A stretch of 8,567 nucleotides of DNA from Amoebidium appalachense (taxonomy: Eukaryota; Protista; Ichthyosporea), in contig CAVNZM010000098.1 of assembly GCA_963693365.1 (NCBI GenBank), forward strand, positions 1 through 8,567, written 5' to 3'. This document shows, piece by piece, positions 1 to 8,567 of this stretch. The notes beneath the pieces were generated by a model. The model worked only from the letters and a program-made list of their open reading frames with translations, did not search any database and was not told where the DNA came from. A program made the position numbers and the translations under genes. How positions within the stretch are numbered: the first letter of the stretch is position 1; every line of letters begins with the position of its first letter.

Positions 1-365
1 TGTCATATAAAACACAACCAACACAATAGAGAGAGAGGGCAATCGGAGTTGTTCACGACACGAGAAAGATTGAAACAACAACTGACGTTTATTGCACTCT
101 CGGACCTTTTTGTTCTGGCCACTCATCATCTCATCTCATCTAAAAAGAAGAGAACCAATCGGGTTCCTTCAACTACAGAGCAAATACATTCCAACGAGAA
201 AACGCTTTCTAACTTCCGTTACAACAGAAGCTTAGAAACTCTACTTAAATAATTTAAGTAACTCAAACAACTTGTCACTATTAATACACATATATATTTA
301 CATTCGTCTCTATAAAGAAACTCATCTAAATACATATATTTCCTGAGAGTCGACACTCTCAGAGT

Positions 366-418
366 TGTGCTGATGAGCACTCGTCGACTATCGCCGATAA
401 GCGAAACCGATATTCACA
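366..418 (+). ncRNA. possible degenerate type I hammerhead ribozyme
   Basis: TGTG-CTGATGA(370-376)-GC...GC-GAAA(403-406)-CCGATA-TT-CACA: both core boxes, a 2-bp closing stem II and a 4-bp stem I. Stem III is mismatched. Confidence 0.3.
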
Positions 419-672
419 TTGGTGGATATCCATCCACGCTGATATCTTGATGTCTATCCACCTGCAAATAAAACACGGTAGACAGACCTCGGAAGGTCAG
501 TCTGGCAAGTCTCGAAGCAGGCTACAAACATTCGATTCACAGTCACTCTCAGAGTGGGGACACATCATGGGAAACGGATTCAAATAGATCTAATGTGTCC
601 AATCAAAACACATCTATAAATAGACTGGAATGCAACACCACGGTCTAGAGTTGGGCTCACTCGCGTCTAGTT

Positions 673-849: not shown

Positions 850-1965
850 GGCAGCAAATTGCGTCGGGGGGGAGCCAGGTATTATTTGTGTCTTTCATAT
901 AAATTTAATTTTAATTTATTTTCTTCTCTTAACCGACATTAGTGAGGAATTTCAACCCTAAGCACTAACTAAATGGTAGGATACTTTTCTGGTCAGCTAG
1001 CTTCCGGGGGGGAGCTAGGTATTATAGGTAAACCCTTTTTTTATAGCGAGGATTTTCAGCCATTTACTAAAACCCAAAGTGGTTACATTAGCCCAATTTT
1101 AAAGATAAATTTAGTGTCTTTCATCCCAATTTAGTTCTAGTTTTTAATCTCCATTAGTGAGTAATTTCAATACTTAGCCCGTGCTATATGGTAGGATACT
1201 CTTCTGGGTTGGCAGTCTCCGGGGGAATAGGTATTTGAGGTAAACCTTTAAATGACAGTGACTATTTTTCAGCTATTTACAATATACAAAAGTGGTTACA
1301 TGCACCTTAATTTTAAGCAAAAATAAGTGTCTTTTATAGTTATTTTATTAAAAATTTTAACCCACATTAGTGAGTAATTTCAATACTAAGCTCTAACTAA
1401 ATGGTCGGATACTCTCCGGGCTAGAATTGTTCCGGGGGGAGTTAGGTATTCGAGGTAAACCTTAAAATTACAAAGAGCATTCTCAGCCATTTACGAAAAA
1501 CTAAAATCTATAAAATTCTATTTATGACAAGCACCTTATTTCCAAGAAAAATTTGGTGTCTTTTATAGCCAATTTATTCCCCTGGGGACCTTTAGTTAGT
1601 GAGGAATTTCAATAGTTAGCTCGTCCTAGATTATAGGATACTCTCCTGGTTAGCTTGCTTCCGGGGGGGAGCCAGGTATTATAGGTAAACCCTTTCTTCA
1701 TAGAGAACAATTTCAGCCATTTACAAAATACAAAACTTGTTACATGCACCTTATTTTCAAGTAAAATTTAGTGTCTTTCATAGAAAATTTCTTAAAAATT
1801 TTAACCTCCATTAGTGAGGAATTTCAATACTAAGCTCGTCCTAAATGGTCGGATACTCTCCTGGCTAGATTTGTTCCGGGGGGAGTTAGGTATTATAGGT
1901 AAACCTTAAATTGACAAAGAGCATTTTCAGCCATTTACTAAAAATTAAATTTATTACATTCACCC
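850..1965. repeat. subterminal tandem repeat, unit ~215 bp, about 5.5 diverged copies
   Basis: Anchor CCGGGGG..AGGTATT..AGGTAAACC at 1004, 1219, 1432, 1661 and 1876 (spacings 215, 213, 229, 215), with an internally deleted unit from ~865. Shared blocks TTCAGCCATTTAC, GTGTCTTT, TTAGTGAG(G/T)AATTTCAA and GGATACT. Confidence 0.93.
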
Positions 1966-2275: not shown

Positions 2276-3739
2276 TTAGAAGTAAGTAAGAATCATTAAA
2301 CATGAAGAATGTAATGAGTTAAGGATTACATCTGGATAGATTCCTAGAAGAATTACAAAAAAGATTAAGGGTAAAAGGGCATAAAATTCTCGACGAGAAA
2401 GATCACGAATAAGAACCGTTGAAAGGTATGGACTTAAAGACCCAAAAGACACACGATTGTAAAGAAATAAAGAATATGCAGCAGAGAAGATAACTCCTGT
2501 TGTAGCAAGAAAAGCTATAAATGGGTTATATTGAAAGATAGCTAAAAGAGATAAGAATTCTCCAATAAAATTAGCCGTTAAAGGTAAACCTAAATTAGCA
2601 AGGGAGAATAAAAGGAAAGAAAGAGAAAATAAAGGCATAACTGCAGCTATCCCTCTATAATATTTAAGAATACGAGTATGAGTACGTTCATATAAAAGAG
2701 TTACACAAATGAAAAGAGCGGAACTTGTAATACCATGAGCTACCATCAAGAAGATCGAAGCTTCAAGACCTTGAATACTACATGTAAATAAAGATAAAGT
2801 TACAAGACCCATATGACTAACACTAGAATATGCAATTATACGTTTAAGGTCTATCTGTCTAAGAGTTGTTAAACTAGCATAAATTACTCCTATCACACTG
2901 AATGTAAATACTAAAGGAGAGAAATATACACTAGCGTAAGGGAATAACGGTAAAGAGAAACGAATAAACCCATAAGCACCTAATTTTAATAACACTCCAG
3001 CTAAAAAGACAGATCCAGCTACTGGTGCTTCAACGTGAGCTTGTGGTAATCATATATGAAACGGTACTTTAGGTATCTTAACAGCTAAAGAAGCATAGAA
3101 AGCTAAGAATAATCAAATTTGAGTTGTCTCATCTAATGTTAATCCTGCTGTTGCTAATAAAACTTGATAATCCGTTGTACCCATATTATAATATAACACA
3201 AAAATTCCTAATAACATTAATACCGAACCTACTAAAGTATATAAGAAGAAATAATAAGCAGCTTGAACCTTTTGGCTACGACTTCCTCATACTCCTATTA
3301 ATACAAACATTGGTATTAACACGCTTTCGAAGAATATGTAGAAAGAGATTACATCTAATACAGTGAAAACTAACATTAACATACCTTCAATTAGTAACAT
3401 ACTAATATAAAATTCTTTAATCATGTATTTAATGCTATCTCAACTAGCTAAGATACATATTGGTGTTAATAATGCGGATAAGATGATAAAATTTAATCCT
3501 ATACCATCTATCCCTAATGTAAACGTTCCACCTGCTAATGGTATTCAATCCATACTTGTTAACATTTGAAAATTTGTTCCACTCAAATCATAATCCATTC
3601 AGATTTTTAATGACATTCATAATGTTATTATTGATGTTAATAACGATGTTCTTTTTATTTGTTCTTCTTTTTTCATTCCTAATAATATTATTAATGCTCC
3701 TATTCATGGTAAACTTACCAATATTGTTAATTTTTCCAT
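2276..3739 (-). CDS. nad4: NADH dehydrogenase subunit 4 (mitochondrial), 487 aa, TGA=Trp code
   Basis: Manual translation from ATG at 3739 (in-frame TAG upstream at 3761-3763) runs without frameshift into the 2276..2995 ORF if TGA=Trp (8 in-frame TGA). It starts MEKLTILVSLPWIGALII and contains ND4/NuoM motifs [84 protein letters not shown] and NFIGEF. Ends at TAA (2276-2278). Confidence 0.98.
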
Positions 3740-4701
3740 TCTTACTTTGATTTTTACCCTCTACTATTTTTCTTTCCTAAGATTGTTATTTCTTGCGTAC
3801 GGCACTCTAAATTCCTAGGCCCAGTTACCACGGGAGGACCACTCTTACAGTATCATTACTATAATACGGGGAGGAGCCGTTCAATAGGTAGGCTAATTTT
3901 ATTAATTCAAAAGCTTTTATCATAGATAAATTATATCTTGTTCTTCGCATGAATGGCTAAGATAAATAGGTTATTACATAAGTCGCAAGAATAAACCCCC
4001 TATAGCTACCATATGGTAACTTATCTTTGGCTCATGTCTGCAGCAAGACAAATTATAACTTGTCTTCAATGCCTATAGCATCTAGTATTATTTTTCTTAG
4101 CCTTATCGGGAAAACAGTCTGATGTTTTTAACCTAAACTGGTCACTAGACAAGAGTCTTGGTTATTTTTCATGACAGGGAAAATATTCTCTTATCATCTA
4201 TGATAAAAGCATAAGAATATTTATATTGACTGAAGGAGTCGCTAAATAACTAGACTTTAACTATCTAAAGGTATACTAAATAATCTTATGAGTCTGCCAA
4301 ATTACCGCATCTGCCACAGCTAATCCAATTTATGATTGGTTTTGAAACCTTATACCTACGTTTAAACGCATTAAAGTCTGTGTGTTATATTAAATTTAAT
4401 CTTTAAACTAGATTTGTTAATAAGGAAGTAACTATAACCTTTTAAGATCAATTCAATAAAGTTAATTTATTCTCTTCTCCCTCCGAGTCTATAATTTCTA
4501 ACTTCCAAACTGCGGATTTGAAAATTAGCCTTCTAAATCTTAGATGCTCCAATGTGTTGACTATAGCTAAGCTTGTTTAGAACTAAGTTATTGCACACCT
4601 ATTCAATGAACTGTTACGTATTCTTTTAAATATAGTGGTTTAGAGCTTACTTTAACATATTTATTCGGTATTAATTATACTAGTATCTTATTATTAGGTA
4701 T

Positions 4702-4784
4702 TATCTCTGGTGAGACTTGAACTCACAAGACTATTCATCACTGTATCCTAAATACAGTCCGTTTACCAATTTCGACACAGAGAT
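4702..4784 (-). tRNA. trnL: tRNA-Leu(UAG), intact
   Basis: Minus strand: acceptor ATCTCTG/CAGAGAT plus discriminator A, D-loop with TTGGTAAAC, anticodon arm CTGTA-TTTAGGA-TACAG, long variable region, T-arm GTGAG-TTCAAGT-CTCAC. Confidence 0.95.
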
Positions 4785-4838: not shown

Positions 4839-5065
4839 AGTTGAAAGTAAGACTTGAAAAGTTTTTACTAGTTTAATGCGAGTACTAAACGAGCTTGTCG
4901 TCGTATGATGACAAGAACATAAGACTTTTATCTTAGCGAGAAAGCTCTACTGAGACTCTAGTACTACCTTGGTACCTACGGAAATCGACGGAACTTTCGC
5001 GGTGCTCCCACCTACAACCAGTACATTAGAAGTTTACTGTTCTACCCTATTTGAGCCCTATCAAT
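4839..5065 (-). pseudogene. trnR: tRNA-Arg(UCU) split in the T-loop by a 152 bp composite insertion (4857-5008)
   Basis: Removing the insert gives ATTGATA GG GCTC AAATAGGGTA GAAC A GTAAA CT-TCT-AA TGTAC TGGTT GTAGG TG^CAAGT CTTAC TTTCAAC T. Several stem mismatches. Confidence 0.7.
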
Positions 5066-5076
5066 TAGCCTTGTAA

Positions 5077-5376
5077 TAGGTATTGCAGGACTTTCGTAGG
5101 AAGGGTCCAACTAGCTTAGGAGAGATCTTGCGCACTTAAAAAAGATCCTGCGCACTTAGGAGAGATCCTGCGCACTTGGAAGGGACCTTGTCGCTAGACA
5201 TAAGTCTATACTCTTGCCTTAACCAGCAAACAAACTTACAGCTGTAATTTTGTAAGAATTATGCTCTACCAATTGAGCTAAATGCGAGTTGCGAGTTCTA
5301 GACGAGCTTGTCGTCGTATGATGACAAGAGCATAAGACTCTTCTCTTAGCGATAAGGCTCTACTGAGACTCTACCT
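5077..5376 (-). pseudogene. trnV: tRNA-Val(UAC) with insertions in the acceptor stem (~5283-5371) and T-loop (~5095-5232)
   Basis: AGGTA^TT TA GCTC AATTGGTA GAGC A TAATT CT-TAC-AA AATTA CAGCT GTAAG TT^..AAGT CCTGC AATACCT A. After joining, the acceptor AGGTATT/AATACCT, the D-stem and the anticodon stem are all perfect. Confidence 0.75.
5115..5194. repeat. 20 bp tandem repeat x4 (CTTAGGAGAGATCCTGCGCA)
   Basis: Units start at 5115, 5135, 5155 and 5175; the array lies inside the T-loop insertion of the trnV pseudogene. Confidence 0.85.
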
Positions 5377-5549
5377 CAATCCTATCCCCATCCCTTTAGA
5401 TATACCTTGGCCCTATAATTCTTGGCTTCCCCGATGAATGATCTTCTAATTAACCACTAAAATTAATATTCAACAATCAGCACTAAAGCAGAAACAATAG
5501 GCCTTTCACTCTAAAGAGCCCACCTTTAGCAAAAGATCCAACTATCCTG

Positions 5550-5632
5550 TGTACTTAAAGGGACTTGCATAACCCTCAACTTTATTTCTCACTGTATTAT
5601 AAGAAAAGCGTGCATTAAGAAACTATAACTAT
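5550..5632 (-). pseudogene. degenerate tRNA remnant (identity unclear) with 3 extra nt in the T-loop
   Basis: T-arm GAGGG TT[ATG]CAAGT CCCTT followed by TAAGTAC A; 5' ATAGTTA TAG pairs 5/7 with it. Anticodon arm not resolvable. Confidence 0.4.
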
Positions 5633-6100
5633 CAATCGCGAGAATTTATCTATTGAGACACAGAGATTAAGTTATTCTCGTAATTAATCCAATTATAAAG
5701 AAGGCACAAATCGAACTTTATACTCTACAATAGAGCGACCTTTCTCAAAAGAACTTGCTTACAAGAGTTTCAGTAGAGCCTTATCGCTAAGAGAAGAGTC
5801 TTATGCTCTTGCCATCATACGACGACAAGCTCGTTGTGAGAGTCTCTAAAGAGCCTTATCGCTAATAAACTTATGCTCTTTGACTCTGAGGAGCCCAAGA
5901 GTCTCAGTTGAGCCTTATCGCTAAGGAACTTATGCTCTTGGGTACCTACGGAAGCCTACGGAACTTTCGCGGTGCTCCAATCTGAGGATCCCAAACTCGT
6001 CTAGTATTCGCAACTCGTATTAGTACTCGAAACTCGCAATTCACCTTGTACGGGTAAGGAGAATTTTACAAATCACCTCTTCTTCCCCTTCGTCATTTCT

Positions 6101-6349
6101 TGGATCTAATAGGACTTGAAAATTTCTTACTACTTTAACTTTTTCCGTCAAGGGAAAGAACCAATGACTCTTGTCTGGTGACAAGTCTCATGGCAAGAGC
6201 ATAAGACTATTTGTCTTAACGACAGAGTACTCTTAGAGCGGTGACTCTACTGAGACTCTAGTACTAACTTGGTACCTACGGAAATCTACGTAACTTTCGC
6301 GGGGCTCCAACTTATAATCTTCAGTTTGTAAAACAGATGCTATATGCCC
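6101..6349 (-). pseudogene. trnV: tRNA-Val(UAC)-like pseudogene, D-arm deleted, 190 bp T-loop insertion (6119-6308)
   Basis: GGGCATA TAGC (D-arm missing) A TCTGT TT-TAC-AA ACTGA AGATT ATAAG TT^CAAGT CCTAT TAGATCC A. Confidence 0.6.
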
Positions 6350-6445
6350 GTAACGTATCTCGGATTTCGCACTTACTCTGAACCTTACTTGTTGTCTCAT
6401 GACAAGAGCATAAGACTATTCTCTAAGTTAGAAGTCCGTTAACGA

Positions 6446-6583
6446 ATTCTCTGATAAAACTTGGTACCTACGGAAATCGACGGAACTTTCGCGGTGCTCC
6501 ACCCCATAACATATTCATTGGAAGTGGTCCTGCCGTGGTAACTCTGAACATCCCAAATGCTCTATTATTTGAGCTATAGAGAT
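6446..6583 (-). pseudogene. trnG: tRNA-Gly(UCC) copy A with a 28 bp anticodon-stem insertion (6527-6554) and a 37 bp T-loop insertion (6464-6500)
   Basis: ATCTCTA TA GCTC AAATAATA GAGC A TTT^CA CT-TCC-AA TGAAT ATGTT ATGGG GT^CAAGT TTTAT CAGAGAA T. Confidence 0.65.
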
Positions 6584-6644
6584 AATAAGTGCTAAGAGGA
6601 GTTACATCAACATGCTTCACTAATTAAGTGGAATGTTTGTAACG

Positions 6645-6934
6645 TATCTCTGATGAGGCTTGAAAAGTTTTTACTATTTTAACTTATCCCGTCATGGGAA
6701 AGAACCAATGACTTTCGTCTGGTGACAAGTCTCATGGCAAGAACATAAGACTATTTGTCTTAACGACAGAATACTCAACAAGCGGCTACTCTACTGAGAC
6801 TCTAGTACGAACTTGGTACCTACGGGAATCGACAGAACTTTCGCGGTGCTCCAACCTATAAGATTTCATTGGAAGTAACCCTGCTGTGGTAACTCTGAAC
6901 GTCTCAAAGGCTCGACCAATTGAGCTAAGGAGAT
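6645..6934 (-). pseudogene. trnG: tRNA-Gly(UCC) copy B with a 28 bp insertion (6878-6905) and a 190 bp T-loop insertion (6663-6852)
   Basis: ATCTCCT TA GCTC AATTGGTC GAGC C TTT^TA CT-TCC-AA TGAAA TCTT ATAGG TT^CAAGC CTCAT CAGAGAT A. Confidence 0.65.
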
Positions 6935-7250
6935 AAAAGGTATCGAAAGGAGTTACATCAACATGCTTCACCAATTAAATTAGATGCTTGTAACGTATCT
7001 ATGATTAGGCTTGGTACCTACGTAAATCTACGGAACTTTCGCGGTGCTCCAACCTATAAGATTTCATTGGAAGTAACCCTGCTGTGATAACTCTGAACGT
7101 CTCAAAGGCTCAACCAATTGAGCTAAAGAGATAAAAGGTATCGAAAGGAGTTACATCAACATGCTTCACCAATTAAATTAGATGCTTGTAACGTATCTAT
7201 GATTAGGCTTGGTACCTACGTAAATCTACGGAACTTTCGCGGTGCTTCAC
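6812..7250. repeat. 198 bp near-perfect tandem duplication (~2.2 copies)
   Basis: R1 starts at 6816, 7014 and 7212, and the intervening sequences are nearly identical; a more diverged copy lies at ~6460-6662. Confidence 0.92.
6996..7132 (-). pseudogene. trnG: tRNA-Gly(UCC) copy C with a 28 bp insertion (7076-7103) and a 37 bp T-loop insertion (7014-7050)
   Basis: The 5' part is a 198 bp tandem duplicate of copy B; the 3' part reads CAAG CCTAAT CATAGAT A. Confidence 0.65.
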
Positions 7251-7275
7251 CCTTAAGCTACACTAGTCATATATA

Positions 7276-7500
7276 AGTGGATAGTAGGACTTGTAAATTC
7301 TTATTACTTTAATGCGAGTACTAAACGAGCTTGTCGTCGTATGATGACAAGAGCATAAGACTTTTATCTTAGTGAGAAAGCTCAAAAGAGGCTCTAGTAC
7401 CCACTTGGTACCTACGGAAATCGACGGAACTTTCGCGGTGCTCCAACCTACAACCTATTGATCCGTAGTTAACTATCCTATCCAATTGAATTATATCAAC
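7276..7500 (-). pseudogene. trnR: tRNA-Arg(ACG) split in the T-loop by a 151 bp composite insertion (7294-7444)
   Basis: Removing 7294-7444 gives GTTGATA TA ATTC AATTGGATA GGAT A GTTAA CT-ACG-GA TCAAT AGGTT GTAGG TT^CAAGT CCTAC TATCCAC T. T-stem perfect, acceptor 6/7 paired. Confidence 0.8.
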
Positions 7501-7511
7501 TATTATCTGAC

Positions 7512-7582
7512 TGCACCATAGTGGAATCGAATCACTATTATTGATATGAAAATCAAGGTCTTAACCGTTAGACGAATGGTGC
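7512..7582 (-). tRNA. trnE: tRNA-Glu(UUC), near-intact but non-canonical
   Basis: Acceptor GCACCAT/ATGGTGC perfect, Glu-type D-arm GTC-TAACGGTTAA-GAC, anticodon stem TTGAT/ATCAA with only a 6-nt loop TTTCAT, T-arm AGTGA-TTCGATT-CCACT with an A53:C61 mismatch. Confidence 0.75.
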
Positions 7583-7591
7583 TATAATTTT

Positions 7592-7709
7592 TAAGGAGAG
7601 TGAGACTTGGTACCTACGGAAATCGACGGAACTTTCGCGATGCTCCAATGCACGAGCCCGGAAGCATCAAATTAGCAATTAGAATGCTTTAGCAAACAGC
7701 AATCCATTC
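7592..7709 (-). pseudogene. trnS: tRNA-Ser(GCU)-like pseudogene with a 37 bp T-loop insertion (7610-7646)
   Basis: Anticodon arm TCTAA TT-GCT-AA TTTGA, long variable arm TGCTTCCGGGCTC, GTGCA TT^CAAGT CTCAC TCTCCTT A. Acceptor and D-arm degenerate. Confidence 0.55.
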
Positions 7710-7806
7710 TGGTGAACCCAATCATAAATTTAACTCTCTTAATCCAATGACAGGTAGCATCGAGATGGTATGAGTTCATGGGATTCAAATAAAGATCGAC
7801 TCTTAA

Positions 7807-7840
7807 GAACCGTATGAGCGACTTTTATCGCATACGGCTC
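7807..7840 (-). ncRNA. group II intron domain V (isolated remnant)
   Basis: Minus strand GAGCCGTATGCGATAAAAGTCGCTCATACGGTTC: a 34 nt hairpin with the AGC triad, a 2-nt bulge and a tetraloop, closely matching the DV consensus GAGCCGTATGCGATGAAAGTCGCACGTACGGTTC. Confidence 0.8.
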
Positions 7841-7924
7841 GCGCAATTATCAAGAAATTTAATACATTAGATCCGGGTGTTACTAAAACCCCGATATCTC
7901 TCTGGTTATTACACCACTGTGAGA

Positions 7925-8104
7925 GCGCAGGTACACAGTACCAAGCTAGCTTAGGCTATTGCCTGGCGCTCAGGGATTTTATCCCAAGCTAGCTTAGGCC
8001 ATTCGCCTTGCGCACAAGGTACACAGTACCAAGCTAGCTTAGGCAATTCGCCTTGCGCACAGGGGGTATCATCCCAAGCTAGCTTAGGCTATTGCCAGGC
8101 GCCC
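7925..8104. repeat. GC-rich ~44 bp palindromic tandem repeat x4
   Basis: CCAAGCTAGCTTAGGC at 7941, 7984, 8029 and 8074, with linkers alternating between GGTACACAGTACC and GGG(A/G)..ATCCC hairpins. Confidence 0.88.
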
Positions 8105-8525: not shown

Positions 8526-8567
8526 AAGCCTAGAATAAGAGTAGAGGAGGAGGGGGCGAGATGAAAT
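8526..8567 (-). repeat. right terminal inverted repeat; the window ends exactly at its outer edge
   Basis: Reverse complement ATTTCATCTCGCCCCCTCCTCCTCTACTCTTATTCTAGGCTT matches 673-714. Confidence 0.9.

What the first reader, a model, noticed from the sequence alone, without database searches (positions are those of the whole stretch)
4839..7709. Tiny non-coding elements repeatedly inserted at one exact position of the tRNA T-loop (TT^CAAG)
Seen: a 37 bp element (R1, 9 copies) sits between positions 55 and 56 of the T-loop (GG-TT^CAAGT on the sense strand) in tRNA bodies with five different anticodons: Arg UCU, Arg ACG, Val UAC, Gly UCC and Ser GCU. Excising it, or the larger composite it begins, restores recognisable cloverleaves; in Arg(ACG) the T-stem GTAGG/CCTAC is perfect. 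The intact trnL carries the same unoccupied TTCAAGT loop. Established: bacterial and organellar tRNA introns (group I/II) are usually in the anticodon region, and small mobile hairpin elements occur in fungal, algal and sponge mtDNA. I do not recognise a described T-loop-specific mini-element. Inference: this is either a site-specific selfish mini-element that inactivates tRNA genes, spreading by targeted insertion or gene conversion between T-arms, or an unrecognised class of removable tRNA intron. Stem mismatches in most hosts favour pseudogenes. Some copies come from later segmental duplication.
Basis: partly seen in the sequence, partly recalled or inferred. Interest (0 to 1): 0.85.

Follow-up and report, generated by a model that had tools for sequence, protein, structure and literature searches.

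The report
Mini-repeat plugging T-loops of dead tRNAs
A 37-base repeat sits at one exact spot, the T-loop, in damaged copies of several mitochondrial tRNA genes whose uninterrupted versions exist elsewhere in the same DNA samples, so it is likely a small selfish element with a preferred landing sequence rather than a new kind of intron.

Summary
The observation largely holds. R1 (37 bp) has 9 copies, 7 of them between T-loop positions 55 and 56 of tRNA bodies with five anticodons; one is a deletion chimera and one lies outside any tRNA. The window looks like one linear chromosome of a multipartite, Amoebidium-like mitochondrial genome (inferred). Public contigs settle most of the intron question: a class about 8-9 times deeper holds an empty-site trnS(GCU), and trnR(ACG) and trnR(UCU) matches that stop at the insertion point; loose ends give an empty-site trnV(UAC). 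Several of their variants mend the window copies' defects, so these four hosts are decaying duplicates. R1 also occurs in other tRNA T-loops (Met, Thr, Ile-like) and at non-tRNA sites keeping T^C(A/C)A. It fails group I, group II and BHB tests and is not a stable hairpin. Best reading: a non-autonomous repeat with a T(T)^CAA(G) target, spread between T-arms by short-homology recombination. One loose end: the high-depth tRNA cluster itself carries a doubly interrupted trnG(UCC)-like unit, no intact trnG was seen, and splicing could not be tested.

The parts
7610..7646 (-). R1 copy in T-loop of a decayed trnS(GCU) copy (gene body about 7709-7592)
   Evidence: empty-site form with perfect T-stem in contigs of runs X2 and X12, joint 7609->7651
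7408..7444 (-). R1 copy in T-loop of trnR(ACG) duplicate (body 7500-7276)
   Evidence: high-depth paralogue pieces begin at 7445
7294..7407 (-). X114: second module after R1, starts with a repeat of CAAGT, holds hairpin repeat R2
   Evidence: fold z -2.45
7212..7248 (-). R1 copy fused to a tRNA D-loop; likely microhomology deletion between D-arm and R1 start
   Evidence: only copy with A at position 2; mechanism inferred
7014..7050 (-). R1 copy in Gly(UCC)-like unit (7132-6996), part of the 198-bp tandem duplication
6816..6852 (-). R1 copy in Gly(UCC)-like unit (6934-6645)
6663..6815 (-). X153 module after R1 in the Gly unit
6464..6500 (-). R1 copy in Gly(UCC)-like unit (6583-6446); the same interrupted unit is on a high-depth tRNA-cluster contig
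   Evidence: X11 record 10
6527..6554 (-). R3: 28-nt insert in the anticodon stem of the Gly unit at TT^CA (also 6905-6878 and 7103-7076, at TT^TA)
   Evidence: partial copy on + strand near 3821
6272..6308 (-). R1 copy in T-loop of a D-armless trnV(UAC) copy (body 6349-6101)
   Evidence: loose ends at 6309 and 6344 give an empty T-loop and an intact D-arm
6119..6271 (-). X153 module after R1 in trnV copy
5942..5978 (-). R1 copy outside any tRNA, inside an R2-type repeat (TT^CCAAG)
5179..5232 (-). R4: unrelated 54-nt insert at TT^CAAGT in the T-loop of the tRNA-like unit starting near 5287
   Evidence: the X11 high-depth match appears to end at 5232 (from_end values)
4972..5008 (-). R1 copy in T-loop of decayed trnR(UCU) copy (body 5065-4839)
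   Evidence: high-depth paralogue ends at 5009 and restores U8-A9 and the D-stem
4857..4971 (-). X115 module after R1 in trnR(UCU) copy
4702..4784 (-). trnL(UAG), uninterrupted, empty TTCAAGT loop
   Evidence: score 114.5
7512..7582 (-). trnE(UUC) pseudogene copy, one base missing in the anticodon loop; no R1 (T-loop TTCGATT)
   Evidence: 114.4 as Glu with contig variants

Best explanation
R1 is a 37-bp dispersed mitochondrial repeat that sits without a target duplication at T(T)^CAA(G) sites, mostly in T-loops of decayed duplicate tRNA genes, and is likely a non-autonomous selfish element spread by short-homology recombination between similar T-arms and by segmental duplication. Shown: the copies, the flanks, empty-site or insertion-free paralogues, extra hosts and non-tRNA sites in other contigs, and near-identical R1+X composites in different tRNA genes. 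Inferred: a tRNA cluster was duplicated onto this chromosome; the redundant genes tolerated insertions; the TTCAAG T-loop is the commonest perfect target in the non-coding DNA; an occupied T-arm would then convert empty ones through the shared bases on each side; the insert is not removed from RNA. The enzyme that makes the first insertion is unknown and not encoded in the window; a host double-strand-break repair route or an intron-encoded enzyme acting in trans is the most likely source.
For: Empty-site trnS(GCU) as DNA at depth 2424 versus about 255-313 for window-identical contigs in X2, and also in X12. High-depth trnR(ACG) pieces begin at 7445 in X2, X12 and X10; the trnR(UCU) piece ends at 5009 in X10, X2 and X11, and its variants raise the score from 89.7 to 110.7 (one of the applied changes, at 5009, was assumed, not read). 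Loose ends give an empty T-loop and whole D-arm for trnV. Neighbouring trnE, which has no R1, is equally decayed, so decay is regional. Both Arg genes share one composite (193 nt, 87%) and Val and Gly share another (213 nt, 87%). Non-tRNA flanks: 1 of 9 window copies plus several loose ends. Other inserts use the same TT^CA site: R3, R4 and a 3-nt insert at 5570.
Against: The high-depth cluster contig (X11 record 10, 988 nt, depth 30.2) carries the Gly unit with both R1 and R3 next to trnL and trnS(UGA), and a second high-depth joint (5283->6267, depth 2549 in X2) shows R1 before a well-formed tRNA 3' half. No intact trnG was seen among the rows shown (50 joints and 315 loose ends were hidden). 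T-loop hosts look over-represented for a bare TTCAA target: 27 such sites outside nad4 are unoccupied. The 3' halves of the intact Arg genes were not read directly. No mobility was observed, and no R1 presence/absence polymorphism between isolates was tested. Contig depth is not copy number.
Confidence: 0.68

Rival explanations
1. R1 is targeted to the T-arm as such, by RNA-level recognition of the T-loop (reverse splicing or retro-insertion into tRNA) or a T-loop-specific recombinase; non-tRNA copies are off-target or secondary.
For: 7 of 9 window copies at 55/56; three more hosts read from single contigs: Met(CAU), Thr(UGU), Ile-like; the 3' end of module X abuts a T-loop CAAG in 4 of 5 matches; all nine copies have the same orientation as the tRNAs.
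Against: Non-tRNA sites in the window and in other contigs; R3 uses TT^CA in an anticodon stem; sequence and structure are confounded because 4 of 5 unoccupied TTCAAG sites outside nad4 are T-loops; shared composites cut the number of independent events.
Confidence: 0.17
2. R1 (with R3) is a removable tRNA intron of an undescribed kind, at least in the Gly(UCC) and Thr(UGU) genes of the high-depth cluster.
For: Interrupted Gly unit on the high-depth cluster contig, with variants at 6502, 6512 and 6513 that restore U54 and the anticodon stem (98.9 after removing both inserts); precise position after U55; no intact trnG among the rows shown.
Against: Four window hosts have insertion-free paralogues as DNA; no omega-G, catalytic core, GUGYG start, domain V or BHB (hand pairing); R1 fold z +0.72 on the tRNA strand; A. 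parasiticum is listed with at least 25 mt tRNAs, enough for a full set, if this organism is alike (PMC7027106 Table 3). Only 5 of the 16 differences in the high-depth Gly unit were visible.
Confidence: 0.05
3. R1 began as a tandem duplication of a tRNA core (positions about 21-55), which by itself puts it at 55/56 and gives it T-arm homology for spreading.
For: R1 starts like a D-stem 3' strand and ends like a T-stem 5' strand; its length is near the 35-nt core; 4 of 5 pairs in the anticodon-stem register.
Against: Grafted into two Arg shells, R1 was matched or beaten by 9 of 300 and 86 of 300 shuffles; two other registers also give 4 of 5 pairs; the loop has no U33 and the interior does not resemble either Arg core.
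Confidence: 0.08
4. The pattern is an assembly artefact or a chance result of choosing cuts that restore cloverleaves.
For: Ser, Val and Arg(UCU) rejoined scores (86-90) lie near chance hits in the window.
Against: Independent runs cross the junctions; empty-site paralogues define the same boundaries.
Confidence: 0.02

Closest known systems
Small dispersed mitochondrial repeats: sponge repetitive hairpin elements, Allomyces double-hairpin elements, yeast GC clusters, Volvox palindromes
   Same: Short, non-coding, many copies, nested in one another (Volvox passages); no flanking duplication, as said of Allomyces elements (PMC2800124 passage); yeast GC clusters have putative target sites (reference title only).
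   Different: R1 is not a stable hairpin (z +0.72 and -1.06); in the passages read those elements lie in intergenic regions, introns, rRNA and some protein genes, not at a fixed tRNA position.
Group I introns in the T-loop of bacterial tmRNA (PMC11915505)
   Same: Insertion after a T-loop uridine; its position 3 probably equals 55/56 (my reading of the numbering; figure not seen).
   Different: Those average about 293 nt, end in G and keep the catalytic core; R1 is 37 nt, ends in C and has no core.
BHB-type short tRNA introns of Crenarchaeota and Cyanidioschyzon (PMC3978253 passages)
   Same: Short inserts at non-canonical sites, including the T-arm, several per gene.
   Different: No BHB at the R1 junctions; hosts are mitochondrial and have insertion-free paralogues.
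Prokaryotic integrative elements that use the tRNA T-loop as attachment site (recalled; general statement in PMC4033280)
   Same: T-loop site; module X is bounded by a repeated CAAG(T).
   Different: No integrase, no restored gene, only 37-190 bp.
Amoebidium parasiticum multipartite mtDNA (PMC2518934 and PMC7027106 passages)
   Same: Linear chromosome with terminal inverted repeats, one coding strand, UGA=Trp, group II remnant, look-alike tRNA bodies.
   Different: Species identity is inferred from architecture, not shown; the primary paper was not held, so it is unknown whether it describes R1.

Membership tests
Group I intron | U at -1 paired with G in P1 | tested here: inconclusive
   U precedes R1 in 8 of 9 copies; by hand no convincing guide sequence in R1
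Group I intron | terminal omega-G | tested here: not met
   R1 ends in C; composites end in T or A before CAAG
Group I intron | catalytic core P3-P7, about 100 nt or more | tested here: not met
   37 nt; no group I match in Rfam at E<=1 over the window
Group II intron | GUGYG start and AY end | tested here: not met
   starts GGAGC; R1 ends AC but composites do not; motif recalled
Group II intron | domain V inside the insert | tested here: not met
   the only domain V match is 7789-7842, outside all inserts
BHB tRNA intron | bulge-helix-bulge at the junctions | tested here: not met
   hand pairing for Arg(ACG): 0 of 4 central-helix pairs; junction fold shows none
Any tRNA intron | removed from the RNA | not testable with these tools
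   only contigs were available, no raw reads
Any tRNA intron | host gene intact and not redundant | tested here: not met
   Ser, Val and both Arg hosts are decayed with insertion-free paralogues; open for Gly and Thr
Hairpin-type mitochondrial repeats (RHE, DHE) | stable hairpin or double hairpin | tested here: not met
   R1 z +0.72 (minus) and -1.06 (plus); X114 does fold in 1 of 2 copies, z -2.45 and -1.03
Hairpin-type mitochondrial repeats (RHE, DHE) | short, dispersed, multi-copy, present or absent at homologous sites | tested here: met
   9 window copies, varied flanks in other contigs, empty versus filled trnS site
MITE or DNA transposon | terminal inverted repeats and target-site duplication | tested here: not met
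   R1 has neither; module X has a CAAG(T) repeat at its ends
Integrative element at a tRNA site | integrase gene and restored tRNA | tested here: not met
   no long ORF but nad4; hosts not restored

The most novel reading that the evidence does not exclude
In the high-copy tRNA cluster the only trnG(UCC), with R1 at 55/56 and R3 in the anticodon stem, and perhaps trnT(UGU), are live genes whose inserts are cut out at TT^CA junctions by an unknown mitochondrial activity, making R1 and R3 a new class of micro-introns that also spread as selfish DNA.
Probability: 0.05. Interest if true: 0.9.

Novelty: new variant of a known kind. Interest (0 to 1): 0.38.

Why it matters
How tiny non-coding repeats move in mitochondrial DNA is unresolved. 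Here several unrelated inserts share one TT^CA junction, filled and empty alleles of the same gene coexist, and boundaries are exact, so target choice can be tested. It also warns annotators: this chromosome's tRNA cluster is a decayed duplicate, and inserts hide tRNA genes from standard scans. If the Gly gene were spliced it would be a new tRNA intron class, but that is unlikely.

Tried and rejected
No whole genome is held, so no genome-wide census of R1 flanks was possible. No RNA holder listed; X10 and X17 are only guessed to be RNA and are contigs, so they are not used as evidence on splicing. For the record, no joint that skips R1 cleanly was listed for them (14 joints shown, 1 hidden; 15 shown, 50 hidden), an X10 contig at 7445-7509 carries the paralogue's variants, and R1 depth is high in both. 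R1 patterns: 0 hits in viral contigs, 0 in prokaryote genomes, 6 in metagenomes, none with the full element; no phage match. nad4 found no useful locus in viral contigs and its homologues did not name the organism. Earlier scan findings: none. R1 as tRNA core: weak. X153 interior as a real Lys tRNA: ARAGORN 99.2 (0 of 300 shuffles) but no Rfam tRNA match and non-canonical loops; treated as a hairpin repeat. G>A-rich deep contigs in X8 look like a base-conversion library and were not used. Burger et al. 2003 was not held under three ids. Nine paper searches listed no title or abstract on a T-loop mini-element; most subscription papers are not in the library.
Full report
Setting. The window carries a 487-codon nad4 read with UGA=Trp (2276-3739, minus), 42-bp terminal inverted repeats (673-714 and 8526-8567), subterminal repeat arrays, an orphan group II domain V and tRNA sequences all on the minus strand. 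This fits one chromosome of a multipartite linear mitochondrial genome like that described for Amoebidium parasiticum (passages of PMC2518934, and PMC7027106). The species is inferred, not shown; nad4 homologues did not name it. No genome is held.

Observation. R1 has nine copies with 0-3 differences from consensus. Seven lie between T-loop positions 55 and 56: Ser(GCU), Arg(ACG), Arg(UCU), Val(UAC) and three related Gly(UCC)-like units. One (5978) lies in a non-tRNA repeat and one (7248) is fused to a D-loop. Four copies are followed by a 114-153 nt module X that begins with CAAG and ends before the true CAAG of the loop. After excision only Arg(ACG) passes ARAGORN's cut-off (103.5; best of 104 deletions). 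Ser, Val and Arg(UCU) score 86-90, near chance hits in the window. The Gly units reach 97-100 only when a second 28-nt insert (R3) in the anticodon stem is removed too, and one of the three needs contig variants as well.

Are the hosts live genes? Contigs of six public runs were laid on two stretches (all contigs, many rows hidden). In X2, window-identical pieces have depth about 255-313 and a second class about 2360-2550. That class holds trnS(GCU) with an empty T-loop and a perfect T-stem (joint 7609->7651; also in X12). It holds trnR(ACG) pieces that begin at 7445 and a trnR(UCU) piece that ends at 5009, both at the insertion point; their 3' halves were not read. The Arg(UCU) variants restore U8-A9 and the D-stem (110.7 versus 89.7; one applied change was assumed). 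Loose ends in X2, depth not given, show an empty trnV T-loop with a fully pairing acceptor strand and the D-arm that the window copy lacks. The neighbouring trnE has no R1 and is also broken while its paralogue is sound (114.4). So the window holds a decaying duplicate of a tRNA cluster, and for these four hosts no splicing need be assumed. Depth is not copy number.

Where else is R1? Single contigs place it in the T-loops of Met(CAU) (joint 5013->5261), Thr(UGU) and an Ile-like body (loose ends at 7452 and 7447); these are my readings of 20-30 letter fragments. Other loose ends are AT-rich and not tRNA-like but keep T before and CAA, CA or CCAA after. Summed depth over R1 in X2 is 34,000-42,000, a rough sign of many copies. 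In the window, 4 of 5 unoccupied TTCAAG sites outside nad4 are T-loops, while 27 TTCAA sites are unoccupied. A 6-base target and a T-loop target therefore cannot be separated here. Other inserts use the same junction: R3 (anticodon stem), R4 (54 nt, T-loop at 5232) and a 3-nt insert in a perfect T-arm at 5570 (0.15 expected in shuffles).

Mechanism. Both Arg genes share one R1+X composite and Val and Gly share another (87% each), although the genes differ. This is best explained by transfer of the whole insert between T-arms through short flanking homology (inferred). The 198-bp tandem array adds copies. R1 has no terminal inverted repeats, no target duplication and no stable fold, and it fails group I, group II and BHB tests. 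The first insertion step is unknown. The idea that R1 is a duplicated tRNA core got weak support only (9 and 86 of 300 shuffles as good).

Against my reading. X11 record 10 (988 nt, depth 30.2, versus 3-8 for window-identical pieces) carries the Gly unit with R1 and R3 in place, together with trnL and, by its loose end, trnS(UGA). Visible variants improve the Gly cloverleaf, but only 5 of 16 were shown. A high-depth joint also shows R1 before a well-formed tRNA 3' half, probably Thr. No intact trnG was seen. A pseudogene inside the cluster with an intact copy elsewhere is the simpler account, since A. parasiticum is listed with at least 25 tRNAs, but RNA-level removal could not be tested.

Literature. 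Passages read: PMC7027106, PMC2518934, PMC2670323, PMC2800124, PMC11244446 (nothing relevant), PMC7218506, PMC3978253, PMC4033280; PMC11915505 passages and part 1 of its Results. No supplements were read. Nine searches listed nothing on a T-loop mini-element; Burger et al. 2003 was not held and may describe these repeats.

Verdict. Real and site-precise, most likely selfish DNA in redundant tRNA copies: a new variant of small mitochondrial repeats, interest 0.38, with about a 5% chance of a new micro-intron class.

Noticed in passing
window 7789-7842 (-): Orphan group II intron domains V-VI (Rfam 41.7 bits), followed by a sequence that resembles a tRNA T-arm 3' half; no 5' part found.
   Followed up: partly
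window 6684-6773 and 6140-6229 (-); 4091-4181 (+): The interior of module X153 folds into a cloverleaf-like shape (ARAGORN 99.2 and 92.2) without canonical loops; a diverged inverted copy lies upstream of nad4.
   Followed up: partly
window 5560-5577 (-): Isolated perfect T-arm with a 3-nt insert at the same TT^CAAGT junction; could be a footprint of insertion or excision.
   Followed up: partly
window 4702-4784 (-): The intact trnL differs at 12 of 91 positions from the copy on the high-depth X11 contig, so it too is a diverged duplicate.
   Followed up: no
window 865-1949: About five diverged units of roughly 215-230 bp with G-runs, next to the left terminal repeat; likely conserved subterminal sequence.
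   Followed up: no
window 7929-8093 and 5115-5177: Tandem arrays of 45 bp and 20 bp, both with GCGCA cores.
   Followed up: no
window 1-672: Sequence beyond the left inverted repeat, unlike the rest; may be a fused neighbour or an extended end.
   Followed up: no
loose end before 5938 in X10: An R1 copy abuts sequence like this window's right subterminal region, so R1 may also sit in chromosome leaders.
   Followed up: no
run X8: Very deep contigs with G>A-only differences, as from a base-conversion library; not used.
   Followed up: no
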